Both the position numbers and the translations under genes were made by a program. From assembly GCF_013122565.1 (NCBI RefSeq), contig NZ_CP053258.1: DNA of 64,000 nucleotides; one strand, written 5' to 3'. The stretch is from Escherichia coli. Lineage in GTDB: Bacteria > Pseudomonadota > Gammaproteobacteria > Enterobacterales > Enterobacteriaceae. Shown piece by piece: positions 24,675 to 54,996 of this stretch (position 1 is the stretch's first letter; each line of letters opens with the position of its first letter). The notes under the pieces are model-generated. The model was not told where the DNA came from, ran no database searches, and saw nothing but the letters and a program-made list of their open reading frames with translations.

Positions 24675-24696
24675 GGGCTAAGCCAGATAAATGCAC

Positions 24697-24746: not shown

Positions 24747-24866
24747 CCAGCGCTAATGCGAATAATTGCCCTCAACCCGCCCATGGTCTGGAAGGACAAC
24801 AGGTACAAACGCCACGATAAAAAAATGGCACTGAAGGTTAAATACCCGACTAAATCAGTCAAGTAA

Positions 24867-30570: not shown

Positions 30571-30747
30571 TTTCCGCGTCATGCTTCACGCCGCAGATGC
30601 GTTGGCTGCGCTCGTTCACCCCAGTCACATAGTTATCTATGCTCCTGGGGCTTCACTCACTTGCCGCCTTCCTGCAACGCGAATCATTTAGCGGAAAAAT
30701 CCTGGGGCTGCCAACTGGCGGCCCTTTTACAAAGAAGGATAACTAAA

Positions 30748-32173: not shown

Positions 32174-32950
32174 ATGTCCGAAACAAAAAACGAACTTGAA
32201 GACCTGCTGGAAAAAGCAGCAACCGAACCGGCTCACCGCCCGGCCTTTTTCCGTACTCTACTGGAATCCACCGTCTGGGTGCCGGGTACGGCGGCGCAGG
32301 GCGAGGCAGTAGTTGAAGATAGCGCGCTTGATTTACAGCACTGGGAAAAAGAAGATGGCACCAGCGTCATTCCTTTTTTTACCTCGTTAGAAGCACTTCA
32401 ACAGGCGGTTGAAGACGAACAGGCATTTGTCGTAATGCCCGTTCGCACATTGTTTGAGATGACCCTTGGTGAAACGCTCTTCCTTAATGCCAAACTGCCA
32501 ACCGGTAAAGAGTTTATGCCGCGTGAAATCAGTTTGTTGATTGGTGAAGAAGGGAGTCCGCTGAGTAGTCAGGAAGTACTGGAAGGCGGTGAATCGCTGA
32601 TATTATCGGAAGTCGCAGAGCCGCCAGCACAAATGATTGATTCACTCACCACCTTATTTAAAACCATTAAGCCAGTGAAGCGTGCTTTTATTTGTTCAAT
32701 TAAAGAGAACGAAGAGGCACAGCCTAATTTACTTATTGGCATTGAAGCCGATGGTGATATCGAAGAAATTATTCAGGCGGCGGGAAGTGTAGCGACCGAT
32801 ACATTACCTGGCGATGAACCAATCGATATTTGTCAGGTGAAAAAAGGGGAAAAAGGAATTAGCCACTTTATTACCGAACATATTGCGCCATTCTATGAAC
32901 GTCGCTGGGGTGGTTTTTTGCGTGACTTTAAACAGAATCGGATAATCTAA
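32174..32950 (+). CDS. sseB: Protein SseB (enhances serine sensitivity)
   Basis: MSETKNELEDLLEKAATEPAHRPAFFRTLLEST...; 258 aa from ATG 32174; adjacent to pepB as in K-12. Confidence 0.88.
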   Translation: MSETKNELEDLLEKAATEPAHRPAFFRTLLESTVWVPGTAAQGEAVVEDSALDLQHWEKEDGTSVIPFFTSLEALQQAVEDEQAFVVMPVRTLFEMTLGETLFLNAKLPTGKEFMPREISLLIGEEGSPLSSQEVLEGGESLILSEVAEPPAQMIDSLTTLFKTIKPVKRAFICSIKENEEAQPNLLIGIEADGDIEEIIQAAGSVATDTLPGDEPIDICQVKKGEKGISHFITEHIAPFYERRWGGFLRDFKQNRII

Positions 32951-32953
32951 AAT

Positions 32954-32975
32954 ATGCCGCCCTAAAGGGCGGCAT
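32954..32975. terminator. Stem-loop after sseB, also positioned as terminator of the minus-strand toxin transcript
   Basis: atgccgccc taaa gggcggcat hairpin; on the minus strand it is followed by AUUUUA. Confidence 0.5.
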
Positions 32976-32981
32976 TCTGGC

Positions 32982-33119
32982 TTACCTGCTGTTCTGAAGG
33001 TTGTTAACCACCAGTAAATTGTCGCCGGAGAGACTCCGGTTATTATTTACCTCGGTTAACAGCGCACCAGAAACAATAAGTACGATACAGAAGCACCGTA
33101 TCTTCATTGTGCGGTCCAT
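32982..33119 (-). CDS. Small hydrophobic peptide, candidate type I toxin (TimP/RyfA-encoded-like), copy 1
   Basis: Minus-strand translation MDRTMKIRCFCIVLIVSGALLTEVNNNRSLSGDNLLVVNNLQNSR (internal Met gives 41 aa from 33107); single predicted TM-like segment; lies at the ryfA locus between sseB and sseA; below the 60-aa cutoff of the ORF track. Confidence 0.45.
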   Translation of the reverse strand: MDRTMKIRCFCIVLIVSGALLTEVNNNRSLSGDNLLVVNNLQNSR

Positions 33120-33330
33120 GCGAAGACCGCATCACGACAGCACCACTGGCGATATTGCCGCGATAGCAAGCGCTGAGACGCGCTTGCTCTAAAGGTCGCG
33201 GAACATCCTTTCCTTAAGCCAGCGCCCGCTTGCGAGACGGCGGAAAGGGCCGCAGTGGATAATACACTAACAGAACAATAATAACTCTCTTTTGCTTGAC
33301 AAAAAGAGAGTTACTGGCGAGTATTGTCTC

Positions 33331-33427
33331 CGCTGAGACGCGCTTGCATTACTACGGTAATACAACCTGCTGGAAAGGCCGCGAACCAAACCGGCAACAA
33401 ATAGCCGCCTGATTTTGGCGGTTTTTT
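33331..33427 (+). ncRNA. Divergent small RNA (TimR/RyfB-like antitoxin candidate), copy 1
   Basis: Sigma70-like promoter TTGACA (33296-33301), 17-bp spacer, GAGTAT (33319-33324); terminator ccgcc...ggcgg plus T6 at 33405-33427; 5-prime 17 nt (33331-33347) are the exact complement of the toxin mRNA leader segment at 33171-33187. Confidence 0.45.
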
Positions 33428-33552
33428 GTTGTTTAAAGAAAGTGAAATTACACGTTTAAGTAATATCTTTTATTGGTTAGTATTTTTAATATTAAGCGAA
33501 AATTGTTTATATTTGTCTGAATTCGGACTAATAAGTCAGGTTATTTTAATAT

Positions 33553-33628
33553 CGAACATATTGCGCCATTCTATGAATGTCGCTGGGGTGGGCTTTTGCG
33601 TGACTTTAAACAGAATCGGATAATCTAA
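33553..33628 (+). pseudogene. Duplicated 3-prime fragment of sseB (unit 2)
   Basis: Near-identical copy of sseB 32875-32950 including the stop codon and followed by a copy of the terminator hairpin; no upstream sseB sequence. Confidence 0.8.
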
Positions 33629-33659
33629 AATATGCCGCCCCAAAGGGCGGCATTCGGGC

Positions 33660-33797
33660 TTACTTGCTGCTCTGACGGTTGTTAACCACCAGTAAATTGT
33701 CGCCGGAGAGACTCCGGTTATTATTTACCTCGGTTAACAGCGCACCAGAAACAATAAGTACGATACAGAAGCACCGTATCTTCATTGTGCGGTCCAT
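33660..33797 (-). CDS. Small hydrophobic peptide, candidate type I toxin, copy 2
   Basis: Same ORF as copy 1 with identical hydrophobic core; C-terminal tail differs (…VVNNRQSSK). Confidence 0.45.
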   Translation of the reverse strand: MDRTMKIRCFCIVLIVSGALLTEVNNNRSLSGDNLLVVNNRQSSK

Positions 33798-34008
33798 GCG
33801 AAGACCGCATCACGACAGCACCACTGGCGATATTGCCGCGATAGCAAGCGCTGTGAAACACCTGCATTTACGGCCACGGAACATCCTTTCCTAAAGCCAG
33901 CGCCCGTTTGCGAGACGGCGGAAAGGGCCGGTGTCGATAATACGCTAAATAAACAATAATTACTCTCTTTTGCTTGACAAAAAGAGAGTTGCTGGCGAAT
34001 ATTGCTCT

Positions 34009-34109
34009 GCTGTGAAGCACCTGCGTTGCTCATGCAACACAAGTCAATCTGCTGGAGAGGCCGCGAACCAAACCGGCAACAAATAACCGCCTGATCTTGG
34101 CGGTTTTTT
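34009..34109 (+). ncRNA. Divergent small RNA (TimR/RyfB-like), copy 2
   Basis: TTGACA (33974-33979), 17-bp spacer, GAATAT (33997-34002); terminator at 34087-34109; 5-prime gctgtgaagcacctgc matches mRNA-leader segment 33850-33865 (two positions form G-U pairs). Confidence 0.45.
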
Positions 34110-34234
34110 GTTGCTTAAAGAAAGTGAATTTACATGTTTAAGTAATATCTTTTACCGGTTAGTATTTTTAATATTGAGCGGGATTTGTTTATATTTGTCT
34201 GAATTCGGACTAATAAGCCAGGTCATTTTAATAT

Positions 34235-34310
34235 CGAACATATTGCGCCATTCTATGAACGTCGCTGGGGTGGTTTTTTGCGTGACTTTAAACAGAATCG
34301 GATAATCTAA
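34235..34310 (+). pseudogene. Duplicated 3-prime fragment of sseB (unit 3)
   Basis: Identical to sseB 32875-32950 including stop; followed by terminator hairpin copy. Confidence 0.8.
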
Positions 34311-34341
34311 AATATGCCGCCCCAAAGGGCGGCATTCGGGC

Positions 34342-34479
34342 TTACCTGCTGTTCTGAAGGTTGTTAACCACCAATAAATTGTTGCCGGAGAGACTCCGGT
34401 TATTATTTACCTCAGTTAACAGCGCACCAGAAACAATAAGTACGATACAGAAGCACCGTATCTTCATTGTGCGGTCCAT
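34342..34479 (-). CDS. Small hydrophobic peptide, candidate type I toxin, copy 3
   Basis: Same ORF; relative to copy 1 two synonymous changes and one D-to-N change (…SLSGNNLLVV…). Confidence 0.45.
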   Translation of the reverse strand: MDRTMKIRCFCIVLIVSGALLTEVNNNRSLSGNNLLVVNNLQNSR

Positions 34480-34693
34480 GCGAAGACCGCATCACGACAG
34501 CACCACTGGCGATATTGCCGCGATAGCAAGCACTGTGGGGTGCCTGTATTTACGGTCATGGAACATCCTTTCCTAAAGCCAGTGCCCGTTTGCGAGACGG
34601 CGAAAAGGGCCGTTAAGAATAATACTCTCATGTTTGAATAATTACTCTGTTTATTATCTTGACATGGCCAGGCATAAAAGAGAGTATTTCAAC

Positions 34694-35655: not shown

Positions 35656-35861
35656 AGGCATCTCCATTTTTGCCGGGGTTAGGCTAAATTGTCGGATGTT
35701 TAGTGAAAAGCGACAAGCAAAAGAGGCTGATTTGGCTGTCTGAGCCACAATTCTCACTAAAATTCGGATTGTATGGGCGTGATACTGAATTACATAACGT
35801 AAATTCTCACGCATAATAATTATTCGACGTTGCTAACGGGCCATTGTGGCAGGGATGAAAA

Positions 35862-38800
35862 ATGAAAAAGTTACGCTTAGCCGCCTGCATGCTAATGCTG
35901 GCGCTGGCAGGGTGCGACAACAACGATAACGCGCCAACAGCGGTGAAAAAAGATGCGCCTTCTGAAGTTACTAAAGCGGCCTCTTCAGAAAACGCGAGTT
36001 CAGCAAAACTCTCCGCGCCAGAGCGACAAAAACTGGCACAACAGAGTGCCGGTAAGGCGCTGACATTGCTGGATCTCGCTGAAGTCCAACTTGATGGTGC
36101 AGCCACGCTGGTGCTGACGTTCTCCATCCCTCTCGACCCGGATCAGGATTTCTCACGCGTTATTCATGTCGTCGATAAAAAAAGCGGCAAAGTGGATGGT
36201 GCCTGGGAGCTGTCAGATAATCTTAAAGAGCTGCGTTTACGCCACCTCGAACCGAAACGTGATTTGATCGTTACTATTGGCAAGGAGGTCAAAGCACTCA
36301 ACAACGCAACCTTCAGTAAAGATTACGAAAAAACTATAACTACCCGCGACATCCAACCCAGCGTCGGTTTTGCCAGCCGTGGTTCGCTGCTGCCTGGTAA
36401 AGTCGTTGAAGGGCTGCCGGTAATGGCGCTCAACGTTAATAATGTCGATGTTAACTTCTTCCGCGTTAAGCCAGAATCTCTGCCAGCATTCATTAGCCAA
36501 TGGGAATACCGCAATTCGCTGGCGAACTGGCAGTCAGACAAACTGCTGCAGATGGCGGATCTGGTCTACACCGGACGGTTTGATCTCAATCCTGCGCGTA
36601 ACACCCGTGAAAAATTATTGCTGCCGCTGGGCGATATCAAACCGCTTCAGCAGGCGGGCGTGTATCTGGCTGTGATGAATCAGGCTGGACGTTACGATTA
36701 CAGTAATCCCGCGACGCTGTTTACGTTAAGTGATATCGGCGTTTCAGCTCACCGTTATCACAATCGTCTGGATATCTTTACCCAAAGTCTGGAAAACGGC
36801 GCGGCCCAGCAAGGAATTGAAGTCTCTTTATTAAATGAGAAAGGGCAGACTCTGACTCAGGCAACAAGTGACGCTCAGGGGCATGTGCAGCTGGAAAATG
36901 ATAAAAATGCGGCATTACTGCTGGCACGTAAAGACGGTCAGACAACGCTACTCGATTTAAAACTTCCGGCGCTGGACTTAGCAGAATTTAACATTGCTGG
37001 CGCGCCAGGCTATAGCAAACAGTTTTTCATGTTTGGCCCGCGCGATCTTTATCGCCCAGGTGAAACGGTCATCCTCAATGGTTTGCTGCGTGATGCAGAC
37101 GGTAAAGCGTTGCCCGATCAACCCATCAAGTTAGACGTGATTAAACCCGACGGGCAGGTACTCAGGAGCGTCGTTAGTCAGCCGGAGAATGGCCTCTACC
37201 ACTTAACCTGGCCACTCGATAGCAATGCGGCAACCGGTATGTGGCATATTCGCGCTAACACGGGCGATAACCAGTATCGGATGTGGGATTTCCACGTCGA
37301 AGATTTTATGCCAGAGCGCATGGCGCTGAATCTGACCGGTGAGAAAACCCCGCTTATGCCGAAAGATGAAGTGAAATTCTCCGTGGTGGGGTACTACCTG
37401 TACGGTGCACCTGCTAATGGTAATACTTTGCAAGGGCAACTTTTCCTGCGCCCACTGCGTGACGCTGTGTCAGCCTTACCTGGTTTTGAATTCGGCGATA
37501 TAGCTGCCGAAAACCTTTCCCGCACGCTGGATGAAGTTCAGTTGACGCTGGATGATAAAGGGCGCGGCGAAGTTTCTACAGAAAGCCAGTGGAAGGAAAC
37601 GCATTCCCCATTACAGGTTATTTTCCAGGGTAGTTTGCTGGAATCGGGCGGTCGCCCGGTGACGCGCCGCGCTGAGCAGGCTATCTGGCCTGCCGATGCA
37701 TTGCCGGGGATCCGTCCGCAGTTCGCCTCGAAATCGGTTTACGATTATCGCACTGACAGCACGGTGAAACAGCTCATTGTTGATGAAGGCAGTAACGCCG
37801 CTTTTGACATCGTTTATAGCGATGCGCAAGGCGTGAAAAAAGCTGTGTCGGGCTTGCAAGTGCGCCTGATTCGCGAACGCCGTGATTACTACTGGAACTG
37901 GTCAGAAGATGAAGGCTGGCAGTCACAGTTTGATCAAAAAGATCTGATCGAAAATGAACAAACTCTGGATCTTCAGGCGGATGAAACCGGTAAGGTCAGT
38001 TTCCCGGTAGAGTGGGGCGCTTATCGTCTGGAAGTCAAAGCGCCGAATGAAGCGGTCAGTAGCGTGCGTTTCTGGGCTGGCTATAGCTGGCAGGACAACA
38101 GCGACGGGAGCGGTACCGTGCGACCCGACCGTGTCACGCTGAAACTGGATAAAGCCAGTTATCGCCCTGGCGATACCATCAAGTTGCATATTGCCGCGCC
38201 AACGGCGGGTAAAGGTTATGCGATGGTCGAGTCCAGTGAAGGGCCGCTGTGGTGGCAAGAGATTGATGTTCCGGCTCAAGGGCTAGATCTGACGATTCCG
38301 GTCGATAAAACCTGGCATCGTCATGATCTGTATTTAAGTACACTGGTGGTACGTCCTGGCGATAAATCTCGCTCCGCGACGCCAAAACGCGCGGTTGGGG
38401 TGTTGCATCTTCCGCTTGGTGATGAAAACCGTCGCCTCGATCTGGCGCTGGAAACACCAGCAAAAATGCGTCCCAATCAGCCATTAACCGTGAAAATTAA
38501 AGCCAGCAATAAAAATGGTGAGATGCCAAAACAGGTGAATGTGCTGGTGTCTGCCGTTGATAGCGGTGTGCTGAATATTACTGACTACGTTACCCCCGAT
38601 CCGTGGCAGGCGTTCTTTGGTCAGAAACGCTATGGTGCAGACATTTACGATATTTACGGTCAGGTCATTGAAGGTCAGGGGCGTCTGGCAGCTCTGCGTT
38701 TTGGTGGCGATGGTGATGAGCTGAAACGTGGTGGTAAACCGCCGGTCAATCACGTCAATATTGTCGCGCAGCAGGCGCTGCCGGTAACGCTCAATGAACA

Positions 38801-40823
38801 GGGCGAAGGCTCGGTTACACTGCCAATTGGCGATTTTAACGGTGAATTACGCGTCATGGCGCAAGCCTGGACGGCAGATGACTTCGGTAGCAACGAAAGC
38901 AAAGTGATAGTTGCCGCACCGGTGATTGCTGAACTGAACATGCCGCGCTTTATGGCGAGTGGCGATACCTCGCGTCTGACGCTGGATATCACTAATCTTA
39001 CCGATAAACCGCAAAAACTGAACGTTGCCCTGACCGCCAGTGGTTTGCTTGAACTGGTCAGCGATTCACCCGCAGCCGTTGAATTAGCGCCAGGTGTGCG
39101 TACTACGCTGTTTATCCCGGTGCGAGCATTGCCGGGTTATGGCGATGGAGAAATTCAGGCCACCATTAGCGGGTTAGCGTTACCGGGTGAAACCGTTGCC
39201 GATCAGCATAAGCAGTGGAAAATCGGCGTCCGTCCGGCGTTCCCGGCACAAACGGTTAATGACGGTACGGCGTTGCAGCCTGGTGAGTCATGGGCGATTC
39301 CGGCGGATGGATTGCAAAACTTCTCGCCTGTTACGCTGGAAGGGCAATTGTTGTTGAGCGGCAAACCACCGCTGAACATCGCACGTTATATCAAAGAGTT
39401 AAAAGCGTATCCGTACGGCTGTCTCGAGCAAACCGCCAGCGGCCTGTTCCCGTCACTTTATACCAACGCAGCCCAACTGCAGGCGTTGGGCATCAAAGGC
39501 GACAGTGATGAGAAACGCCGTGCATCGGTCGATATCGGCATTTCCCGTTTGCTGCAAATGCAACGTGATAACGGCGGCTTTGCGCTGTGGGATAAAAACG
39601 GTGACGAAGAGTACTGGCTGACGGCTTACGTGATGGATTTCCTGGTCCGCGCAGGCGAACAGGGTTACAGCGTGCCGACAGACGCCATTAACCGGGGTAA
39701 TGAGCGTCTGCTGCGCTATTTACAAGATCCGGGCATGATGTCGATCCCGTACGCGGATAATCTCAAAGCCAGTAAATTCGCCGTACAGTCTTACGCTGCG
39801 CTGGTGTTGGCCCGTCAGCAAAAGGCTCCACTGGGTGCGCTGCGTGAAATCTGGGAGCATCGTGCAGATGCCGCTTCTGGTTTACCGCTGCTGCAACTTG
39901 GCGTTGCGCTGAAAACCATGGGTGATGCAACGCGTGGTGAAGAAGCGATTGTGCTGGCGCTGAAAACGCAGAGAAATAGTGATGAGCGGATATGGCTGGG
40001 TGATTACGGTAGTCCACTGCGCGACAACGCGTTAATGCTCTCCTTGCTGGAAGAAAATAAACTGCTACCCGATGAGCAGTACACTTTGCTGAACACACTT
40101 TCGCAGCAGGCGTTTGGTGAACGCTGGCTATCGACGCAGGAAAGTAACGCGTTGTTCCTGGCTGCCCGTACGATTCAGGATTTACCGGGTAAATGGCAGG
40201 CGCAAACCTCTTTCTCATCTGAGCCGCTGATAGGCGAGAAAGCGCAAAACAGCACTCTGAATAGCGATCAACTTGCCACCTTGCAGGTGACCAACAGTGG
40301 CGATCAGCCGTTATGGCTGCGTGTGGATGCCAGCGGTTATCCGCAATCCGCACCTTTACCGGCGAACAATGTGCTGCAAATCGAGCGTCATATTCTTGGT
40401 ACTGATGGTAAGAGCAAATCGCTGGACTCGTTACGTAGCGGCGATCTGGTGCTGGTCTGGTTGCAGGTAAAAGCCAGTAACAGCGTGCCAGATGCGTTAG
40501 TCGTGGATTTGCTGCCTGCGGGTCTGGAACTGGAAAACCAGAATCTGGCGAACGGTAGCGCCAGCCTGGAGCAAAGTGGTGGCGAAGTGCAAAACTTACT
40601 GAACCAGATGCAGCAGGCGAGTATTAAGCACATTGAGTTCCGTGACGATCGCTTTGTGGCGGCGGTTGCCGTTGATGAATACCAACCGGTAACGCTGGTG
40701 TATCTGGCGCGGGCGGTGACGCCGGGAACGTATCAGGTACCGCAACCGATGGTGGAATCAATGTATGTTCCCCAATGGCGGGCGACTGGCGCGGCTGAAG
40801 ATCTGCTGATTGTCAGACCGTAA
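35862..40823 (+). CDS. yfhM: Alpha-2-macroglobulin family lipoprotein
   Basis: Lipoprotein signal MKKLRLAACMLMLALAGC; thioester motif GCLEQ (about 39420); 1653 aa. Confidence 0.93.
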   Translation: MKKLRLAACMLMLALAGCDNNDNAPTAVKKDAPSEVTKAASSENASSAKLSAPERQKLAQQSAGKALTLLDLAEVQLDGAATLVLTFSIPLDPDQDFSRVIHVVDKKSGKVDGAWELSDNLKELRLRHLEPKRDLIVTIGKEVKALNNATFSKDYEKTITTRDIQPSVGFASRGSLLPGKVVEGLPVMALNVNNVDVNFFRVKPESLPAFISQWEYRNSLANWQSDKLLQMADLVYTGRFDLNPARNTREKLLLPLGDIKPLQQAGVYLAVMNQAGRYDYSNPATLFTLSDIGVSAHRYHNRLDIFTQSLENGAAQQGIEVSLLNEKGQTLTQATSDAQGHVQLENDKNAALLLARKDGQTTLLDLKLPALDLAEFNIAGAPGYSKQFFMFGPRDLYRPGETVILNGLLRDADGKALPDQPIKLDVIKPDGQVLRSVVSQPENGLYHLTWPLDSNAATGMWHIRANTGDNQYRMWDFHVEDFMPERMALNLTGEKTPLMPKDEVKFSVVGYYLYGAPANGNTLQGQLFLRPLRDAVSALPGFEFGDIAAENLSRTLDEVQLTLDDKGRGEVSTESQWKETHSPLQVIFQGSLLESGGRPVTRRAEQAIWPADALPGIRPQFASKSVYDYRTDSTVKQLIVDEGSNAAFDIVYSDAQGVKKAVSGLQVRLIRERRDYYWNWSEDEGWQSQFDQKDLIENEQTLDLQADETGKVSFPVEWGAYRLEVKAPNEAVSSVRFWAGYSWQDNSDGSGTVRPDRVTLKLDKASYRPGDTIKLHIAAPTAGKGYAMVESSEGPLWWQEIDVPAQGLDLTIPVDKTWHRHDLYLSTLVVRPGDKSRSATPKRAVGVLHLPLGDENRRLDLALETPAKMRPNQPLTVKIKASNKNGEMPKQVNVLVSAVDSGVLNITDYVTPDPWQAFFGQKRYGADIYDIYGQVIEGQGRLAALRFGGDGDELKRGGKPPVNHVNIVAQQALPVTLNEQGEGSVTLPIGDFNGELRVMAQAWTADDFGSNESKVIVAAPVIAELNMPRFMASGDTSRLTLDITNLTDKPQKLNVALTASGLLELVSDSPAAVELAPGVRTTLFIPVRALPGYGDGEIQATISGLALPGETVADQHKQWKIGVRPAFPAQTVNDGTALQPGESWAIPADGLQNFSPVTLEGQLLLSGKPPLNIARYIKELKAYPYGCLEQTASGLFPSLYTNAAQLQALGIKGDSDEKRRASVDIGISRLLQMQRDNGGFALWDKNGDEEYWLTAYVMDFLVRAGEQGYSVPTDAINRGNERLLRYLQDPGMMSIPYADNLKASKFAVQSYAALVLARQQKAPLGALREIWEHRADAASGLPLLQLGVALKTMGDATRGEEAIVLALKTQRNSDERIWLGDYGSPLRDNALMLSLLEENKLLPDEQYTLLNTLSQQAFGERWLSTQESNALFLAARTIQDLPGKWQAQTSFSSEPLIGEKAQNSTLNSDQLATLQVTNSGDQPLWLRVDASGYPQSAPLPANNVLQIERHILGTDGKSKSLDSLRSGDLVLVWLQVKASNSVPDALVVDLLPAGLELENQNLANGSASLEQSGGEVQNLLNQMQQASIKHIEFRDDRFVAAVAVDEYQPVTLVYLARAVTPGTYQVPQPMVESMYVPQWRATGAAEDLLIVRP

Positions 40824-43136
40824 ATGCCTCGCCTGTTAACCAAACGCGGCTGCTGGATAACGCTGGCAGCTGCGCCCTTTCTCCTTTTTCTTGCAGCGTG
40901 GGGAGCAGATAAACTCTGGCCTCTACCGCTGCATGAAGTCAATCCCGCACGAGTGGTCGTGGCGCAGGATGGTACGCCGCTCTGGCGCTTCGCCGATGCT
41001 GACGGCATCTGGCGTTATCCGGTAACAATCGAAGATGTTTCTCCACGTTACCTTGAAGCGCTGATCAATTATGAAGATCGCTGGTTCTGGAAGCATCCGG
41101 GGGTGAATCCATTCTCGGTGGCGCGCGCAGCATGGCAAGATCTCACTTCGGGACGGGTTATTTCCGGTGGCAGCACGCTCACTATGCAGGTTGCTCGTCT
41201 GCTTGATCCTCACCCCAAAACATTTGGCGGCAAAATTCGCCAGCTCTGGCGCGCGTTGCAACTGGAGTGGCATTTGTCTAAGCGTGAAATTCTGACCTTG
41301 TATCTTAACCGCGCTCCGTTTGGCGGTACGTTGCAGGGGATCGGTGCGGCAAGTTGGGCTTATCTCGGAAAATCGTCTGCGAATTTAAGCTATTCCGAGG
41401 CGGCAATGCTGGCGGTGTTGCCGCAAGCGCCCAGCCGACTGCGCCCGGATCGCTGGCCGGAACGTGCCGAAGCCGCGCGTAATAAAGTGCTCGAACGGAT
41501 GGCTGCGCAAGGTGTGTGGTCCCGTGAGCAGGTAAAAGAGTCAAGGGAAGAACCCATCTGGCTGGCACCCCGACAAATGCCGCAACTGGCACCGCTGTTT
41601 TCGCGCATGATGCTCGGTAAAAGCAAAAGCGACAAAATTGTTACTACGCTGGATGCCGGTCTTCAACGACGTCTGGAAGAACTGGCGCAAAACTGGAAAG
41701 GACGATTACCACCGAGCAGCTCACTGGCGATGATCGTGGTTGATCATACCGATATGCGTGTTCGCGGCTGGGTGGGATCGGTTGATCTCAACGATGATTC
41801 ACGCTTTGGTCATGTCGATATGGTCAATGCGATCCGATCGCCAGGATCGGTGCTCAAACCGTTTGTTTATGGTCTGGCGCTGGATGAAGGCTTGATCCAC
41901 CCGGCATCACTGCTGCAAGACGTCCCCCGGCGCACCGGTGATTATCGACCAGGTAATTTTGATGGCGGTTTTCATGGCCCGATCAGCATGAGCGAGGCGC
42001 TGGTGCGCTCGCTGAATTTACCTGCTGTGCAGGTGCTGGAAGCCTATGGCCCGAAACGGTTTGCGGCAAAGTTACGCAATGTTGGATTGCCGTTATATTT
42101 GCCCAACGGTGCTGCGCCGAATCTTTCACTCATACTCGGCGGCGCTGGTGCAAAACTGGAAGATATGGCGGCAGCGTATACCGCGTTTGCTCGCCACGGC
42201 AAGGCAGGCAAATTGCGCTTACAGCCTGACGATCCGCTGCTTGAACGGCCTTTAATGTCGTCGGGGGCGGCGTGGATCATTCGCCGGATTATGGCTGATG
42301 AAGCGCAACCCTTGCCGGATAGTGCCTTGCCGCGCGTCGCCCCACTGGCATGGAAAACGGGCACCAGCTATGGCTATCGTGATGCCTGGGCGATTGGGGT
42401 TAACGCTCGCTATGTCATTGGGATCTGGACTGGCAGACCGGATGGCACGCCCGTTGTTGGTCAGTTTGGCTTTGCCAGCGCCGTACCGCTGTTGAATCAG
42501 GTTAATAATATCTTATTGTCGCGCAGTGCTAATCTGCCGGAAGACCCGCGCCCGAACTCAGTCACTCGTGGCGTTATCTGCTGGCCGGGCGGACAGTCTT
42601 TGCCGGAAGGTGACGGTAACTGTCGCCGCCGCCTGGCAACCTGGTTGCTGGACGGGAGCCAGCCGCCAACTCTATTACTGCCGGAGCAGGAAGGCATTAA
42701 TGGCATTCGTTTTCCCATCTGGCTGGATGAAAACGGCAAACGTGTTGCCGCTGATTGCCCTCAGGCGCGACAAGAAATGATAAATGTCTGGCCGCTACCG
42801 CTGGAACCCTGGTTGCCCGCATCAGAACGCCGCGCTGTGCGCTTACCACCGGCCTCGACAATTTGCCCGCCATACGGTCACGATGCACAACTCCCGCTGC
42901 AGCTGACAGGCGTTCGCGATGGCGCGATTATTAAACGTTTACCGGGCGCAGCAGAAGCGACTTTGCCGGTGCAATCAAGTGGAGGAGCAGGTGAACGCTG
43001 GTGGTTTCTGAATGGCGAACCGTTAACTGAACGCGGGCGCAACGTGACCCTGCATTTGATGGATAAAGGCGATTATCAATTGCTGGTGATGGATGAGGTG
43101 GGGCAAATCGCGACAGTGAAATTTGTCATGCAATAG
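40824..43136 (+). CDS. pbpC: Penicillin-binding protein 1C (transglycosylase/transpeptidase)
   Basis: 770 aa; glycosyltransferase family 51 N-terminal region plus transpeptidase region; start ATG immediately follows the yfhM stop. Confidence 0.93.
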   Translation: MPRLLTKRGCWITLAAAPFLLFLAAWGADKLWPLPLHEVNPARVVVAQDGTPLWRFADADGIWRYPVTIEDVSPRYLEALINYEDRWFWKHPGVNPFSVARAAWQDLTSGRVISGGSTLTMQVARLLDPHPKTFGGKIRQLWRALQLEWHLSKREILTLYLNRAPFGGTLQGIGAASWAYLGKSSANLSYSEAAMLAVLPQAPSRLRPDRWPERAEAARNKVLERMAAQGVWSREQVKESREEPIWLAPRQMPQLAPLFSRMMLGKSKSDKIVTTLDAGLQRRLEELAQNWKGRLPPSSSLAMIVVDHTDMRVRGWVGSVDLNDDSRFGHVDMVNAIRSPGSVLKPFVYGLALDEGLIHPASLLQDVPRRTGDYRPGNFDGGFHGPISMSEALVRSLNLPAVQVLEAYGPKRFAAKLRNVGLPLYLPNGAAPNLSLILGGAGAKLEDMAAAYTAFARHGKAGKLRLQPDDPLLERPLMSSGAAWIIRRIMADEAQPLPDSALPRVAPLAWKTGTSYGYRDAWAIGVNARYVIGIWTGRPDGTPVVGQFGFASAVPLLNQVNNILLSRSANLPEDPRPNSVTRGVICWPGGQSLPEGDGNCRRRLATWLLDGSQPPTLLLPEQEGINGIRFPIWLDENGKRVAADCPQARQEMINVWPLPLEPWLPASERRAVRLPPASTICPPYGHDAQLPLQLTGVRDGAIIKRLPGAAEATLPVQSSGGAGERWWFLNGEPLTERGRNVTLHLMDKGDYQLLVMDEVGQIATVKFVMQ

Positions 43137-43284
43137 TCTGTTTTGTCCCTGATTGTTGCTTAAACTGGGTTTATTTTAAAAAAATGTTACCTTCAGCAAT
43201 AGTCAACGGCCCTGTTGCTCATTATAATCCGCGCCATCTCGTACGCTGGTACAGACAACAACAGAACAATTTACAGAGGTAAAC

Positions 43285-43716
43285 ATGGCTATTGAACGTA
43301 CTTTTTCCATCATCAAACCGAACGCGGTAGCAAAAAACGTCATTGGTAATATCTTTGCGCGCTTTGAAGCTGCAGGGTTCAAAATTGTCGGCACCAAAAT
43401 GCTGCACCTGACCGTTGAACAGGCTCGTGGCTTTTATGCTGAACACGATGGAAAACCGTTCTTTGATGGTCTGGTTGAATTCATGACCTCTGGCCCGATC
43501 GTGGTTTCCGTGCTGGAAGGTGAAAACGCCGTTCAGCGTCACCGCGATCTGCTGGGCGCGACCAATCCGGCAAACGCACTGGCCGGTACTCTGCGCGCTG
43601 ATTACGCTGACAGCCTGACCGAAAATGGTACCCACGGTTCTGATTCCGTCGAATCTGCCGCTCGCGAAATCGCTTATTTTTTCGGCGAAGGCGAAGTGTG
43701 CCCGCGCACCCGTTAA
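43285..43716 (+). CDS. ndk: Nucleoside diphosphate kinase
   Basis: [28 protein letters not shown]... with active-site NGTHGSDS; 143 aa. Confidence 0.97.
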
Positions 43717-50807: not shown

Positions 50808-52280
50808 ATGGTACCTGTGGTCGCGCTTGTCGGGCGCCCTAACGTAGGAAAATCCACGTTATTTAACCGTCTAACTCGCACCCGAGATGCGCTGGTTGCG
50901 GATTTCCCGGGTCTGACTCGTGACCGTAAGTACGGTCGTGCGGAAATTGAAGGCCGTGAGTTTATCTGTATTGATACCGGCGGGATTGATGGTACAGAAG
51001 ACGGTGTAGAAACCCGCATGGCGGAACAGTCGCTGCTGGCGATTGAAGAAGCGGACGTCGTACTGTTTATGGTGGATGCGCGCGCGGGCCTGATGCCGGC
51101 AGATGAAGCGATTGCCAAACATCTGCGCTCCCGTGAAAAACCGACCTTCCTGGTGGCAAACAAAACTGACGGTCTGGATCCCGATCAGGCAGTGGTTGAT
51201 TTCTACTCGCTTGGTTTAGGTGAAATCTACCCGATCGCCGCGTCTCACGGTCGTGGCGTATTAAGTCTGCTGGAGCATGTGCTACTGCCGTGGATGGAAG
51301 ATCTCGCACCGCAAGAGGAAGTCGACGAAGACGCTGAATACTGGGCGCAATTTGAAGCGGAAGAGAACGGCGAAGAAGAAGAGGAAGACGACTTCGACCC
51401 GCAAAGTCTGCCGATCAAACTGGCGATTGTGGGTCGTCCGAACGTAGGTAAGTCTACACTCACTAACCGTATTCTTGGTGAAGAGCGCGTTGTTGTTTAT
51501 GACATGCCTGGTACGACGCGTGACAGTATCTACATTCCAATGGAACGCGATGGACGTGAGTATGTGCTCATTGACACCGCTGGCGTACGTAAACGCGGTA
51601 AAATCACCGATGCTGTAGAGAAATTCTCCGTAATCAAAACGTTGCAGGCCATTGAAGATGCCAACGTGGTGATGTTGGTGATTGATGCGCGCGAAGGTAT
51701 TTCCGATCAGGATCTCTCCCTGCTGGGCTTTATTCTCAATAGTGGGCGCTCACTTGTCATTGTGGTGAATAAGTGGGATGGCCTGAGCCAGGAAGTGAAA
51801 GAGCAGGTGAAAGAAACGCTGGACTTCCGTCTGGGCTTTATCGATTTTGCTCGTGTGCACTTTATCTCTGCCTTGCACGGCAGTGGTGTTGGTAACTTGT
51901 TTGAATCAGTACGTGAAGCGTATGACAGCTCCACCCGTCGTGTGGGGACCTCTATGCTGACGCGCATCATGACGATGGCTGTTGAAGATCACCAACCGCC
52001 GCTGGTACGCGGTCGTCGTGTGAAGCTGAAATATGCACACGCCGGTGGTTATAATCCGCCGATTGTGGTGATTCACGGTAACCAGGTGAAAGACCTGCCT
52101 GATTCCTACAAGCGTTACTTGATGAACTACTTCCGCAAATCGCTGGACGTAATGGGATCGCCGATTCGTATTCAGTTCAAAGAAGGGGAAAACCCGTATG
52201 CGAACAAGCGTAACACCCTGACGCCAACCCAGATGCGTAAACGTAAGCGCCTGATGAAGCACATCAAGAAAAGTAAGTAA
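50808..52280 (+). CDS. der: Ribosome assembly GTPase Der (EngA), tandem GTPase domains
   Basis: Two G1 motifs GRPNVGKST (N-terminal and about residue 213), acidic linker, KH-like C-terminus; start at internal ATG 50808 giving 490 aa. Confidence 0.96.
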
Positions 52281-52339
52281 TTACTTATCTGGTTTCCCTT
52301 TTCTCATGGAGAGGGAAACCGAATAACACGCGAGGAGTA

Positions 52340-52558
52340 TTGATGGAATTCAATTGCCCAACCTGCCATAAACCTCTCGAACATCACGGCGAGACGGCTC
52401 ATTGCGTAACTTGCGACAAAGATTTCACCATCCAGGCACTTTGCCCTGACTGCCATCAGCCGCTACAGGTGTTAAAGGCTTGTGGCGCTGTGGACTATTT
52501 CTGCCAACATGGCCACGGATTAATTTCTAAAAAACGCGTTGAGTTTATTATTGCTTAA
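52340..52558 (+). CDS. yfgJ: Small zinc-ribbon protein YfgJ
   Basis: 72 aa with two CxxC…HxxxC pairs (CPTCHKPLEHHGETAHCVTC and CPDCHQPLQVLKACGAVDYFCQHGH); GAGGAG Shine-Dalgarno at 52331-52336. Confidence 0.85.
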   Translation: MMEFNCPTCHKPLEHHGETAHCVTCDKDFTIQALCPDCHQPLQVLKACGAVDYFCQHGHGLISKKRVEFIIA

Positions 52559-52767
52559 TATCATCTGAATGTATGGTTTTATCATTTGTATTTAATATAT
52601 AAATGATAAAGCCATCTCTTATTGGTTAAATCACTAGTACATGTGAGTGAAATCATTTTGATAAATTTTTAGGAATATATTTAGTTTTTCTGACGTGCCT
52701 TCCTGAATGTTCTGGCATAGAATATTAGAGCTTATTCATCAAATTATCATTGCCACAGGGAAAGTGC

Positions 52768-54942
52768 ATGCTGCGATGGAGTCGCTTTATAATGTTACTA
52801 TTTATCTCTGCTGCAACTCCTGCGGCAGAGATAAATAGTAAGCAAAATGAATCGTTACCTGATTTAGGCAGCCAGGCGGCTCAACAAGTAGAACAAACGG
52901 ATAAGGGTAAATCGTTAAAAGAGCGTGGAGCCGATTACGTCATCGATTCTGCTACGCAAGGGTTCGAAAACCTGACCCCCGAGGCGCTGGAATCTCAGGC
53001 CAGAAGCTATCTGCAAAGTCAAATCACCTCAACCGCGCAATCTTATATTGAAGAGACACTCTCTCCCTACGGTAAGGTCCGTTCGAATCTCTCTATTGGT
53101 CAAGGTGGCGATCTGGATGGTAGCTCCATCGATTATTTTGTTCCCTGGTATGATAATCAAACGACCGTTTATTTCAGTCAATTTTCTGCGCAACGAAAAG
53201 AGGACCGTACGATCGGGAATATCGGAATTGGAGCAAGACATAATTTCGATGAATGGCTTTTGGGTGGAAATATATTTTACGATTATGATTTCACCCGTGG
53301 GCATCGACGTTTAGGTTTGGGGACAGAGGCCTGGACCAATTATTTAAAATTTTCTGGCAACTATTATCATCCGCTCTCTGACTGGAAAGACTCTGAAGAT
53401 TTCGACTTTTATGAAGAGCGCCCTGCGCGCGGTTGGGATATTCGCGCTGAAGCCTGGTTACCTTCTTATCCGCAACTGGGGGGCAAAATTGTCTTCGAGC
53501 AATATTACGGTGATGAAGTCGCCCTTTTTGGTACGGATAATTTAGAGAAAGATCCCTATGCGGTGACGCTAGGACTGAATTATCAACCGGTACCGTTACT
53601 GACAGTTGGAACGGATTATAAAGCGGGGACAGGAGATAACAGCGATGTCAGCATTAATGCCACTCTTAATTATCAATTCGGCGTTCCGCTAAAAGATCAA
53701 CTCGACAGCAATAAAGTAAAAGCAGCCCACTCGTTGATGGGCAGTCGCCATGATTTTGTCGAGCGTAATAACTTTATCGTCCTGGAATATAAAGAGAAAG
53801 ACCCTCTGGATGTGACGTTGTGGCTGAAAGCGGATGCGACCAACGAGCACCCTGAGTGCGTCATTAAGGACACTCCAGAAGCGGCGATCGGGCTGGAAAA
53901 ATGTAAGTGGACCATTAACGCACTGATCAATCACCACTACAAAATTGTCGCTGCGTCATGGCAGGCGAAAAACAATGCCGCCCGCACGCTGGTGATGCCG
54001 GTCATCAAAGAAAATACCATCACTGAAGGCAACAACAACCACTGGAATCTGATACTGCCAGCCTGGCAGTACAGCTCTGACAAAGCCGAGCAGGAAAAAC
54101 TCAACACCTGGCGGGTACGGCTGGCGCTGGAAGATGAAAAGGGTAATCGGCAAAACTCCGGCCTGGTTGAGATCACCGTTCAGCAGGACCGTAAAATTGA
54201 GCTGACCGTCAATAACATTGCTGATGTGCCTGATGAGAATAACCACAGCCATGAAGCCAGCGCTCAGGCGGATGGCGTTGATGGTGTGGTCATGGACCTC
54301 GAGGTGACGGACAGTTTTGGCGATAACACGGACCGCAACGGTGATGCTCTGCCAGAAGATAATCTTGCACCGCAGCTCTACGACGCTCAGGACAAAAAAG
54401 TCACGCTAACCAATAAACCCTGCTCGACCGACAACCCCTGCGTGTTTATTGCCAAACAAGATAAAGAAAAGGGAACGGTAACCCTCTCCAGTACATTGCC
54501 AGGCGTTTTCCGCTGGAAAGCGAAAGCGGCTCCCTACGATGACAGTAACTATGTGGATGTCACGTTTATTGGATCTGATATCGGCGGGCTTAATGCTTTC
54601 ATTTACCGGCTTGGGGGAGCGAAGCCAGTCAATTTGATCGGCAATGATAAAGACCCCCTGCCGCTGGGCAACACGTACCGATTTGTGTTGTGGCGTGATG
54701 CCAACAAAGACGGCGTTTTTCAGCAGTCGGAAAAACTAACCGATGAAGAGATGACTCAGTACGACTACAAGTGGGAATTTACCGGCAAGAGCATCAATGG
54801 CGAAGTAGGTGCGCAGGCGAACACATCCAATGCAGACATTGTAATACCGGCGACCAACCGTGAAGCGGCGCAATCCTATGGTGCAAAAGTGGAAGATGGC
54901 TTGCAGGGTTACGGTTTACGCGTGCTGTACACCAAAAAATAA
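52768..54942 (+). CDS. sinH: Intimin/invasin-family outer membrane protein (inverse autotransporter), SinH-like
   Basis: Signal peptide MLRWSRFIMLLFISAATPAAE; central region aligns by eye with the invasin/intimin beta-barrel domain (…EAWTNYLKFSGNYYHP…ERPARGWDIRAEAWLPSYPQLGGKIVFEQYYGDEVALFG…RNNFIVLEYKE); ATG at 52768 (track ORF starts at upstream TTG). Confidence 0.8.
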   Translation: MLRWSRFIMLLFISAATPAAEINSKQNESLPDLGSQAAQQVEQTDKGKSLKERGADYVIDSATQGFENLTPEALESQARSYLQSQITSTAQSYIEETLSPYGKVRSNLSIGQGGDLDGSSIDYFVPWYDNQTTVYFSQFSAQRKEDRTIGNIGIGARHNFDEWLLGGNIFYDYDFTRGHRRLGLGTEAWTNYLKFSGNYYHPLSDWKDSEDFDFYEERPARGWDIRAEAWLPSYPQLGGKIVFEQYYGDEVALFGTDNLEKDPYAVTLGLNYQPVPLLTVGTDYKAGTGDNSDVSINATLNYQFGVPLKDQLDSNKVKAAHSLMGSRHDFVERNNFIVLEYKEKDPLDVTLWLKADATNEHPECVIKDTPEAAIGLEKCKWTINALINHHYKIVAASWQAKNNAARTLVMPVIKENTITEGNNNHWNLILPAWQYSSDKAEQEKLNTWRVRLALEDEKGNRQNSGLVEITVQQDRKIELTVNNIADVPDENNHSHEASAQADGVDGVVMDLEVTDSFGDNTDRNGDALPEDNLAPQLYDAQDKKVTLTNKPCSTDNPCVFIAKQDKEKGTVTLSSTLPGVFRWKAKAAPYDDSNYVDVTFIGSDIGGLNAFIYRLGGAKPVNLIGNDKDPLPLGNTYRFVLWRDANKDGVFQQSEKLTDEEMTQYDYKWEFTGKSINGEVGAQANTSNADIVIPATNREAAQSYGAKVEDGLQGYGLRVLYTKK

Positions 54943-54996
54943 GATTGGCGTAAGGCCAGTCGGCCAGTCGCTGAAGATTCATTAAGGAGAGACTCA

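What the first reader, a model, noticed from the sequence alone, without database searches (positions are those of the whole stretch)
35862..43136. yfhM-pbpC cistrons joined with no intergenic gap
The yfhM stop codon (40821-40823) is immediately followed by the pbpC ATG (40824), consistent with translational coupling of the alpha-2-macroglobulin-like lipoprotein (thioester motif CLEQ present) and the PBP1C transglycosylase, the pairing proposed to act as a periplasmic defence and repair module.
Basis: partly seen in the sequence, partly recalled or inferred. Interest (0 to 1): 0.25.

Follow-up and report, generated by a model that had tools for sequence, protein, structure and literature searches.

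The report
Known yfhM-pbpC operon junction, stem-loop inside
The two genes are the well-known E. coli alpha-2-macroglobulin (yfhM) and PBP1C (pbpC) pair, abutting exactly as annotated in thousands of genomes, so the finding is ordinary; the only new detail is that pbpC has no ribosome-binding site and carries a conserved, terminator-like RNA stem-loop in its first 50 bases.

Summary
yfhM (35862-40823, 1653 aa) ends in TAA, and the pbpC ATG (40824; 770 aa, ends 43136) follows with no gap. Both ORFs are intact. The CLEQ region is identical to crystallised ECAM, and PbpC scores well above NCBI's equivalog cutoff.

The arrangement is already known. RefSeq annotates the same zero-gap junction. The locus is present in 5425 of 5426 complete E. 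coli genomes. The defence-and-repair pairing dates from 2004. Distances of -8 to +6 nt are common in E. coli.

New details:
1. pbpC has no Shine-Dalgarno sequence in any of 51 distinct Enterobacteriaceae junctions.
2. In Escherichia, a 25-bp hairpin pairs the 3' end of yfhM with pbpC codons 1-5.
3. A 12-13-bp hairpin at pbpC +22 to +51 (40845-40874) is conserved with compensatory changes. In Klebsiella it carries a full U-tract and looks like an intrinsic terminator. In this window the U-tract is weak.

Best reading: pbpC is translated mainly by termination-reinitiation at low yield, and the stem-loop probably attenuates transcription or stabilises the yfhM 3' end. None of this is shown experimentally.

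Interest is low for the finding and modest for the stem-loop.

The parts
35848..35854 (+). Shine-Dalgarno-like GGCAGGG, 7 nt upstream of the yfhM ATG
   Evidence: The anti-SD duplex energy is -6.0 kcal/mol.
35862..40823 (+). yfhM (ECAM), a bacterial alpha-2-macroglobulin lipoprotein of 1653 aa
   Evidence: Pfam finds bMG1, A2M_bMG2, bMG3, MG2, bMG5, bMG6, A2M_BRD, A2M, TED, CUB and bMG10. PDB chains 4rtd, 4ziq and 5a42 match with more than 3500 bits. RefSeq annotates the homologue as yfhM.
35904..35915 (+). Lipobox L-A-G-C (Cys18), followed by Asp at +2
   Evidence: Seen in the translation. Asp+2 as an inner-membrane retention signal is established knowledge and was not tested here.
39420..39431 (+). 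CLEQ thioester motif (residues 1187-1190)
   Evidence: A 77-residue segment around it is 100% identical to crystallised E. coli ECAM.
40776..40838 (+). Hairpin A: an interrupted 25-bp stem-loop that pairs yfhM 3' codons with the G of the pbpC AUG and pbpC codons 2-5. The UAA-AU sits in an internal loop.
   Evidence: strand folding gives z = -4.9 with 0/200 shuffles. The pair list is stable across four window sizes. Only 0.06% of 64-nt windows in the operon fold as well. It is kept in all sampled E. coli variants and in E. albertii through one-sided G-C to G-U changes. It is not evident in Citrobacter (z about -0.5).
40821..40826 (+). The yfhM stop TAA abutting the pbpC start ATG (0-nt gap, in frame); no Shine-Dalgarno sequence upstream
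   Evidence: In the homologous E. coli region pbpC has the second-weakest SD, the most stable local fold and the lowest accessibility of 40 neighbouring genes. None of 51 distinct Enterobacteriaceae junctions has an SD of -4 kcal/mol or better.
40824..43136 (+). pbpC (PBP1C), a class A penicillin-binding protein of 770 aa
   Evidence: NCBIfam NF008414 scores 1560 bits against a cutoff of 1121, aligned over residues 1-770. Pfam finds Transgly, Transpeptidase and BiPBP_C. The motifs are present: E84-D85 at 41073-41078, S342xxK at 41847-41858, S396xN at 42009-42017 and K511TG at 42354-42362.
40845..40874 (+). Hairpin B: a 12-bp stem with a 6-nt loop inside pbpC codons 8-17, conserved with covariation across Enterobacteriaceae
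   Evidence: Pairs are listed and folds in 50 junction variants. On the MAFFT alignment A3, 83.8% of cells are paired against 70.4% when shuffled, and the covariation score is 0.375 against 0.145 (0/500 shuffles; slid controls at most 0.166). Pair 29:52 occurs as CG/GC/AU/UA. Synonymous recoding reaches the observed stability in 3.6% of trials for the window and in 0-22% across other genera.
40875..40892 (+). Pyrimidine/U-rich tract CCCTTTCTCCTTTTTCTT after hairpin B (it encodes P-F-L-L-F-L of the membrane anchor)
   Evidence: It has 4 U in the first 9 nt and is below the tool's terminator threshold. The homologous tract in Klebsiella is UUUAUUUUU(U/C), with 8 of 9 U, and is flagged as terminator-like.
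40887..40938 (+). Hairpin C: a further stable stem-loop in pbpC codons 22-39 (not analysed for conservation)
   Evidence: strand folding on 40840-40945 gives z = -4.6. It is the best 44-nt fold of the junction zone.

Best explanation
This is the known yfhM-pbpC operon of Escherichia. yfhM encodes the inner-membrane-anchored, thioester-containing alpha-2-macroglobulin ECAM, and pbpC encodes PBP1C. pbpC has no ribosome-binding site of its own. In Escherichia its initiation region is also buried in a hairpin formed with the last codons of yfhM. I therefore infer that pbpC is translated mainly by ribosomes that have just finished yfhM: they melt the hairpin, terminate at UAA, and a minority re-initiate on the abutting AUG (termination-reinitiation). 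This would make PBP1C synthesis strictly dependent on, and much lower than, ECAM synthesis. A second, evolutionarily conserved stem-loop lies 21 nt into pbpC. I infer that it acts on the RNA as a partial intrinsic terminator (attenuator) and/or a 3'-end stabiliser for yfhM transcripts, which would lower pbpC expression further. What is shown: the sequence anatomy, the absence of an SD, and the conservation and covariation of the stem-loop. What is inferred: coupling, attenuation and the resulting stoichiometry.
For: The zero gap is. The best anti-SD energy is +0.4 kcal/mol, against -6.0 for yfhM. Among 40 neighbouring genes, pbpC is extreme for SD strength, local fold stability and accessibility. 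None of 51 distinct Enterobacteriaceae junctions has an SD. Hairpin A has z = -4.9, is robust to window size, and is retained across E. coli variants and E. albertii. Published E. coli experiments show three things: reinitiation needs distances of roughly -8 to +6 nt, it is usually weakened 60-90% without an SD, and strictly coupled pairs have structure over the start site (PMC10666635; PMC6728339). Hairpin B covaries. It is more stable than synonymous recodings in most genera. It is flagged as terminator-like in Klebsiella and in Enterobacter sp. BIGb0383. Lineages with a 50-110-nt spacer carry a stem-loop right after the A2M stop instead, and the one in Photorhabdus is flagged as terminator-like. 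In 29 of 70 A2M-pbpC loci from diverse bacteria, the hairpin after the A2M stop ranks in the top 5% of the locus (binomial p about 1e-19). No sigma-70-like promoter was found on the + strand between 35817 and 42903.
Against: I could reach no experimental data on transcripts or translation of this operon. Term-seq supplements that I searched list no 3' end in yfhM or pbpC. In this window the U-tract after hairpin B is weak (4 of 9 U), and the terminator scan does not flag it. Some genera (Pseudocitrobacter, Raoultella, Kosakonia) keep the hairpin without a U-tract, so termination cannot be its universal role. The peptide R-W-x-W-L-A-G/A already forces the inner part of the stem: recoded sequences average -16 kcal/mol, and the recoding test gives only p = 0.036 for the window. 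Hairpin A is confined to Escherichia and is supported only by one-sided changes. At least one E. coli strain keeps an intact pbpC behind a yfhM pseudogene.
Confidence: 0.7

Rival explanations
1. pbpC is expressed independently of yfhM translation. Either ribosomes initiate de novo on the SD-less AUG, or a separate transcript starts inside the 3' part of yfhM. On this view the abutment is only genome compaction.
For: SD-independent initiation exists in E. coli: bioF initiated de novo despite a very weak SD (PMC6728339). E. coli MSHS 133 retains an intact pbpC downstream of a yfhM pseudogene with an internal stop.
Against: pbpC has no SD, and its start has the lowest accessibility (0.24) and the most stable local structure of 40 neighbouring genes. 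No promoter-like site lies near the junction. The 0 or +1 nt spacing is kept in nearly all Enterobacteriaceae sampled despite strong divergence of the adjoining pbpC codons.
Confidence: 0.15
2. Hairpin B is a by-product of coding for the conserved basic/Trp-rich tail and the start of the PBP1C membrane anchor (R-W-R-W-L-A-G), and has no function at the RNA level.
For: The inner stem, CGCUGG...CUGGCG, follows directly from the Arg-Trp and Leu-Ala codons. Randomly recoded sequences still fold to -16 to -24 kcal/mol. In Enterobacter cloacae, Raoultella and Citrobacter the observed stability is not exceptional (p = 0.08-0.22).
Against: The outer stem covaries across amino-acid replacements: pair 29:52 occurs as CG/GC/AU/UA, 30:51 as GC/CG, and 28:53 as AU/CG. 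No shuffle out of 500 reaches the observed score, and slid-partner controls are far lower. The observed hairpin beats all or nearly all recodings in E. albertii, Kosakonia, Phytobacter, Pseudocitrobacter and Superficieibacter. Lineages with a spacer have a non-coding hairpin at the same place relative to the A2M stop.
Confidence: 0.2
3. Hairpin B serves translation rather than transcription. It would act as a roadblock just outside the mRNA entry channel that holds the post-termination ribosome on the SD-less AUG.
For: The distance from the start codon to the base of the stem is nearly constant, at 21-26 nt, in 0-gap and +1-gap lineages. The hairpin is kept in genera that lack the U-tract.
Against: In Yersinia, Photorhabdus and other lineages the equivalent stem-loop lies upstream of the pbpC start, in the spacer, where it cannot play this role. 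I know of no bacterial precedent; this is my own knowledge, not a tool result.
Confidence: 0.15
4. The annotated pbpC start is wrong and the true start is an internal GTG (codon 44 or 46), so there is no abutment.
For: GTG codons exist at 40953 and 40959.
Against: Such a protein would lack the N-terminal membrane anchor (residues 10-27). The NCBIfam equivalog model aligns from residue 1. NCBI-annotated PbpC proteins of Klebsiella, Enterobacter, Kosakonia, Phytobacter, Raoultella and Pseudocitrobacter have exactly the lengths predicted from starts abutting the A2M stop.
Confidence: 0.03

Closest known systems
E. coli ECAM (YfhM) / PBP1C (PbpC) gene pair, proposed as a periplasmic defence-and-repair module (Budd et al. 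2004; structures 4RTD, 4ZIQ, 5A42)
   Same: The genes, order, zero-gap junction, lipobox and CLEQ thioester are the same. Protein identity to an annotated E. coli strain is 99%.
   Different: Nothing of substance. The window is 1.7% or more diverged from every complete E. coli genome at this locus.
Termination-reinitiation (TeRe) coupled gene pairs of E. coli, such as hyfH-hyfI, astD-astB and ydbH-ynbE (PMC6728339, PMC10666635)
   Same: The genes are co-directional, the stop-start distance lies within -8 to +6 nt, and stable RNA structure is predicted over the downstream start site.
   Different: Those pairs overlap by 1 nt and mostly carry an SD inside the upstream gene. Here the gap is 0 nt and no SD is present in any Enterobacteriaceae examined. 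The pair is not known to form a stoichiometric complex.
Partial intrinsic terminators (attenuators) inside operons that set unequal expression, such as the rplL-rpoB attenuator and the terminator between rpsU and dnaG (my own knowledge; not checked here)
   Same: A GC-rich stem-loop, with a U-tract in many lineages, lies between a presumably more abundant upstream product and a scarce downstream one.
   Different: In Enterobacteriaceae the stem-loop and U-tract lie inside the downstream coding sequence rather than in a spacer. In this window the U-tract is sub-canonical, and function is untested.
Pseudomonas aeruginosa MagD, a class-2 bacterial alpha-2-macroglobulin in the magABCDEF operon (PMC3735191)
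   Same: A bacterial alpha-2-macroglobulin fold located in the periplasm.
   Different: MagD lacks the lipobox Cys and the CxEQ thioester, and it is not next to pbpC. The window protein has all three features.

Membership tests
Bacterial alpha-2-macroglobulin, class 1 (ECAM type) | MG-domain series, bait-region domain, thioester domain, CUB and C-terminal MG domain | tested here: met
   Eleven Pfam A2M-related domains lie above their cutoffs in the expected order. There are full-length matches to PDB 4rtd, 4ziq and 5a42.
Bacterial alpha-2-macroglobulin, class 1 (ECAM type) | CxEQ thioester motif | tested here: met
   CLEQ lies at residues 1187-1190, and 77 of 77 surrounding residues are identical to crystallised ECAM.
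Bacterial alpha-2-macroglobulin, class 1 (ECAM type) | Signal peptide with a lipobox cysteine | tested here: met
   The N-terminus reads MKKLRLAACMLMLALAGC-D. Lipidation itself cannot be tested here.
Bacterial alpha-2-macroglobulin, class 1 (ECAM type) | Gene adjacent to pbpC | tested here: met
   A2M also lies directly upstream on the same strand in about 70 of 79 PbpC loci from diverse bacteria.
PBP1C (PbpC equivalog) | Score above the curated NCBIfam equivalog cutoff | tested here: met
   NF008414 scores 1560 bits against 1121, and TIGR02073 scores 916 against 494.
PBP1C (PbpC equivalog) | Glycosyltransferase E-D motif; transpeptidase SxxK, SxN and KTG motifs; C-terminal BiPBP_C domain | tested here: met
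   E84-D85, S342VLK, S396LN and K511TG are all present. Pfam finds Transgly, Transpeptidase and BiPBP_C.
Termination-reinitiation coupled gene pair | Same strand, with a stop-start distance of about -8 to +6 nt | tested here: met
   The gap is 0 nt. The criterion comes from PMC10666635.
Termination-reinitiation coupled gene pair | Translation of the downstream gene depends on translation of the upstream gene | not testable with these tools
   This needs premature-stop reporter constructs or ribosome profiling.
Termination-reinitiation coupled gene pair | SD motif inside the upstream gene (usual in E. coli pairs, but not strictly defining) | tested here: not met
   The best anti-SD duplex is +0.4 kcal/mol, and 0 of 51 Enterobacteriaceae junctions reach -4 kcal/mol or better.
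Intrinsic (Rho-independent) terminator / attenuator | GC-rich stem-loop | tested here: met
   Hairpin B at 40845-40874 has 12 pairs and a free energy of about -20 kcal/mol. It is conserved with covariation.
Intrinsic (Rho-independent) terminator / attenuator | U-tract immediately 3' of the stem | tested here: not met
   The window tail is CCCUUUCUCC, with 4 of 9 U, and is not flagged by the scan. The feature is met in Klebsiella (8 of 9 U), Phytobacter, Superficieibacter and Enterobacter sp. BIGb0383. I therefore do not file the window's element as a terminator, only as terminator-like.
Intrinsic (Rho-independent) terminator / attenuator | Transcript 3' ends mapping to the U-tract | not testable with these tools
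   No entry for yfhM or pbpC appears in the Term-seq supplements I could search.

The most novel reading that the evidence does not exclude
The conserved stem-loop inside the first 50 nt of pbpC would be a functional transcription attenuator, or 3'-end element of yfhM mRNA, overprinted by the PBP1C membrane-anchor codons. Together with SD-less termination-reinitiation, it would form a two-layer device that fixes a high ECAM to low PBP1C ratio across Enterobacteriaceae. Readthrough might depend on a ribosome re-initiating quickly enough to cover the 5' arm of the stem.
Probability: 0.35. Interest if true: 0.45.

Novelty: already known. Interest (0 to 1): 0.27.

Why it matters
As stated, the finding adds nothing to what is annotated in every E. 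coli genome. The junction anatomy is mildly useful. It predicts that PBP1C, a class A PBP whose role is still unclear, is made only when and where ECAM is made, and at a much lower level. That fits the defence-and-repair idea and may explain why pbpC phenotypes are hard to see. If the in-ORF stem-loop is a real attenuator, it would be a clean natural example of a terminator overlapping the coding sequence of the gene it controls. It would also need to be preserved by anyone cloning pbpC or yfhM separately.

Tried and rejected
- **Rfam.** A gathering-threshold search of the whole window, and a permissive search of 40500-41100, found no described RNA family at the junction.
- **Transcript 3' ends.** I looked for experimental 3' ends in Term-seq and TERMITe supplements and found no yfhM or pbpC entries. 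The Rend-seq paper has no supplements held.
- **Papers not held.** Budd et al. 2004 is not in the library (PMC463071). Two further look-ups by PMC id recalled from memory (aimed at a ribosome-profiling paper and a proteome-quantification paper for ECAM/PBP1C abundance) also failed, so no abundance data could be cited.
- **Literature on the junction.** Searches for yfhM or pbpC with "terminator" or "operon" found nothing on junction regulation.
- **Internal promoter for pbpC.** No sigma-70-like site lies near the junction. Total hits equal the shuffle expectation, so this scan is weak evidence either way.
- **Alternative pbpC start codons.** Rejected; see the fourth rival explanation.
- **Readthrough fusion of ECAM and PBP1C.** The two ORFs are in frame here, but many genera have a 1-nt gap that breaks the frame, so this is not a conserved feature.
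- **Hairpin A as a general feature.** Rejected. It is clear only in Escherichia: Citrobacter gives z about -0.5, and accessibility of the start region is ordinary in most other genera.
- **Protein homologue list.** The first search returned almost only Citrobacter proteins at 86% identity. I needed the 50%-cluster search to build a diverse alignment.

Full report
**1. The observation**

The six-frame ORF list gives a 1653-codon ORF at 35862-40823 and a 770-codon ORF at 40824-43136, both on the + strand. The sequence reads CAGACCG-TAA-ATG-CCT. The stop is therefore at 40821-40823 and the next ATG at 40824, with no base between them and both ORFs in the same frame. The upstream in-frame stop for the second ORF is that same TAA. 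The next in-frame start codons are GTGs at codons 44 and 46.

**2. Identity of the genes**

- The first protein carries the full bacterial alpha-2-macroglobulin domain series: bMG1, bMG2, bMG3, MG2, bMG5, bMG6, bait-region domain, A2M, TED, CUB and bMG10.
- It matches the crystal-structure sequences of E. coli YfhM/ECAM (4rtd, 4ziq, 5a42) end to end, and Salmonella A2M (4u48) slightly less well.
- It begins MKKLRLAACMLMLALAGC-D, a lipobox with Cys18 followed by Asp.
- CLEQ is at residues 1187-1190 (nt 39420-39431). The 77 residues around it are identical to ECAM.
- The second protein scores 1560 bits on the NCBIfam PbpC equivalog (cutoff 1121), aligned from residue 1 to 770. It has Transgly, Transpeptidase and BiPBP_C domains.
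- It keeps E84-D85, S342xxK, S396xN and K511TG.
- Neither gene is interrupted. Identity to the proteins of E. coli GF3-3 is 1637/1653 and 760/770.

**3. How ordinary it is**

A megablast of 35700-43300 finds the locus in 5425 of 5426 complete E. coli genomes. The best identity is 98.3%. RefSeq annotates yfhM and pbpC with the same zero-gap junction. The window is collinear with the E. coli yphH-der region.

The literature I could read states three things: that yfhM is frequently in an operon with pbpC, that both proteins are inner-membrane-anchored and periplasmic, and that they were proposed in 2004 to act together in defence and repair (PMC4498604; PMC3735191; PMC6131605).

Distances of -8 to +6 nt account for 24% of co-directional gene pairs in E. 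coli. This is the range in which termination-reinitiation works (PMC10666635). The finding as written is therefore correct and already known.

**4.

There are none. The best duplex between the 16S anti-SD sequence and the 20 nt upstream of the pbpC ATG is +0.4 kcal/mol, against -6.0 for yfhM. I compared 40 annotated genes of the homologous 49-kb E. coli region. Among them pbpC has:

- the second-weakest SD;
- the most stable 120-nt fold around its start (-51.3 kcal/mol; the next is -39.3);
- the lowest probability of being unpaired (0.24).

The 120 nt centred on the junction fold to -53.6 kcal/mol, with z = -4.9 and 0 of 200 shuffles as good. Hairpin A (40776-40838, 25 pairs) pairs codons near the end of yfhM with the G of the AUG and pbpC codons 2-5. 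It is found with every window size tried. It persists in all sampled E. coli variants and in E. albertii, where substitutions convert G-C to G-U. It is not evident in Citrobacter (z about -0.5).

**5. Related sequences**

- I built a diverse PbpC alignment and scanned one genome per species, which gave 79 loci.
- An A2M gene lies directly upstream on the same strand in about 70 of them.
- Junction geometry varies:
  - 0 nt in Escherichia and Citrobacter;
  - +1 nt in several Enterobacter-like genera;
  - ATGA or GTGA 4-nt overlaps, or 1-nt overlaps, in many Alpha- and Betaproteobacteria;
  - 50-110 nt in Yersinia and Photorhabdus (about 200 nt in Orbaceae);
  - 400-700 nt in most Pseudomonas.
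- A DNA-pattern scan of metagenomes for the conserved 3' end of yfhM added 62 Enterobacteriaceae loci. Together with the earlier loci this gives 55 unique junctions.
- By exact protein look-up, these include Klebsiella grimontii/oxytoca, K. quasipneumoniae, K. aerogenes/pneumoniae, the Enterobacter cloacae complex, Kosakonia, Phytobacter/Kluyvera, Pseudocitrobacter and Raoultella. The annotated PbpC lengths equal those predicted from a start abutting the A2M stop.
- All but two junctions have a gap of 0 or 1 nt.
- None of 51 distinct junctions has an SD of -4 kcal/mol or better; the range is -0.6 to +1.2.

**6. A conserved stem-loop inside pbpC**

Hairpin B (40845-40874, 12 pairs, 6-nt loop, about -20 kcal/mol) lies at pbpC +22 to +51. 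A hairpin at the same place is predicted in almost every junction variant, although the stem sequence differs.

*Covariation.* I used a MAFFT alignment of 30 distinct sequences that was not fitted to any structure. On the 15-pair helix:

| Measure | Observed | Shuffled | Shuffles reaching observed |
|---|---|---|---|
| Cells paired | 83.8% | 70.4% | 0/500 |
| Cells with changes on both sides | 61 | 25 | 0/500 |
| Covariation score | 0.375 | 0.145 | 0/500 |

Slid-partner controls reach at most 0.166. Pair 29:52 occurs as CG (12), GC (6), AU (4) and UA (4). Pair 30:51 occurs as GC (16) and CG (12). Pair 28:53 occurs as AU (14) and CG (12). These compensations cross amino-acid replacements (Thr/Ser/Arg/Gly on one arm, Gly/Ala plus Phe/Ile/Val on the other).

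*Coding constraint.* The inner stem is largely dictated by the Arg-Trp...Leu-Ala codons. Synonymous recodings still average -16 to -24 kcal/mol. The native sequence is more stable than 96.4% of recodings in the window, than all or nearly all (at least 99%) in five genera, and than only 78-93% in four others.

*The tail.* It is UUUAUUUUU(U/C) in all 17 unique Klebsiella-type (K. pneumoniae/oxytoca-group) junctions, and 7 of 9 U in four others. It is only 3-5 of 9 U in Escherichia, Citrobacter and Enterobacter cloacae, and 1-3 of 9 in Pseudocitrobacter and Raoultella; Kosakonia has 4 of 9.

*Terminator scan.* The independent scan flags the element in Klebsiella (13 pairs) and in Enterobacter sp. 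BIGb0383. It does not flag it in this window.

*Wider picture.*
- In Photorhabdus, Yersinia and an Enterobacterales MAG, which have a spacer, a strong stem-loop sits right after the A2M stop, upstream of pbpC. The Photorhabdus one is flagged as terminator-like; the other two are not.
- Over 70 A2M-pbpC loci, the best hairpin within about 100 nt after the A2M stop ranks in the top 5% of the locus's own coding DNA in 29 cases (binomial p about 1e-19).
- In the window, the junction zone beats all 71 background zones.
- A third hairpin follows at 40887-40938.

**7. Mechanism**

*Shown:* the 0-nt gap; the absence of an SD throughout the family; a sequestered start in Escherichia; and a covarying stem-loop 21 nt into pbpC that has textbook terminator anatomy in some genera and a degenerate U-tract here.

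*Established elsewhere:*
- In E. coli, reinitiation needs near-zero distance.
- Removing the SD usually costs 60-90% of reinitiation.
- Strictly coupled pairs have structure over the downstream start.

*Inferred:*
- pbpC is translated chiefly by ribosomes that terminate on yfhM, at low efficiency.
- The stem-loop acts on the RNA, most economically as a partial terminator and/or 3' stabiliser of yfhM mRNA. That role also fits the lineages where the stem-loop precedes the pbpC start.
- A ribosome stalled at the yfhM stop would cover roughly 12-15 nt downstream and leave hairpin B free to form. A ribosome that has re-initiated and moved a few codons would cover its 5' arm. Readthrough could therefore depend on reinitiation. 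This last step is speculation.

**8. Limits**

- I could reach no transcript or protein abundance data for this operon. The searchable Term-seq supplements do not list it.
- The shuffle control does not correct for relatedness. The slid-partner control and the multiple pair types mitigate this, but a phylogeny-aware test is still needed.
- Many metagenome junctions are close relatives of one another.
- Start-codon assignment outside Enterobacteriaceae is approximate.

**9. Verdict**

The finding is real, correctly interpreted and already known. Interest is low. The SD-less, structured junction and the conserved in-ORF stem-loop are, as far as the searchable literature shows, undescribed. They would be new instances of known mechanisms, and they are worth a small experiment rather than a headline.

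Noticed in passing
window 32949-34613 (- strand): Three tandem ryfA (RF00126) copies and two IS128 (RF00125) copies lie between sseB and sseA. The closest E. coli genome examined (GF3-3) has two timP/ryfA units, so this window carries an extra copy of the toxin/sRNA unit.
   Followed up: partly
window 52700-64000: After der/yfgJ lies a sinI / sinH (intimin-like inverse autotransporter) / giant adhesin island. Only 933 of 5426 complete E. coli genomes match 80% or more of it, and the best identity is 97.1%.
   Followed up: partly
L149 (E. coli NCTC9100), locus 1480-1740: This is a natural deletion of pbpC and ndk. yfhM ends normally, about 25 nt of pbpC remain, and the sequence then continues into the ndk-rlmN spacer. 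Hairpin A is kept and hairpin B is lost.
   Followed up: partly
L147 (E. coli MSHS 133): yfhM is annotated as a pseudogene with an internal stop, while pbpC is intact. This is a natural test case for coupling or polarity.
   Followed up: no
window 40887-40938: A third stable stem-loop (hairpin C) lies in pbpC codons 22-39, after the U-rich linker. The stretch 40764-40940 is the most structured part of the 7.3-kb operon. Its conservation was not tested.
   Followed up: partly
protein clusters; P0035 and P0001: In Klebsiella and Enterobacter, the 90%-identity clusters contain both 1649-aa A2M and 774-aa PbpC members. There is also a 903-aa PbpC-like call (P0035). The E. coli cluster representative (P0001) is 758 aa rather than 770. 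These are probably fused or truncated gene calls across the in-frame TAA|ATG junction.
   Followed up: no
window 24671-24795 and 30571-30729: Two short stretches do not align to E. coli GF3-3 in an otherwise collinear region: after trmJ / before iscR, and after iscX / before pepB.
   Followed up: no
window 35700-43300 and 52200-64000: No complete E. coli genome is closer than 98.3% at the yfhM-pbpC locus, or 97.1% at the sinH region. The 117-nt junction itself is identical in some strains. The source is therefore an Escherichia lineage not represented among complete RefSeq genomes, or a mosaic.
   Followed up: no
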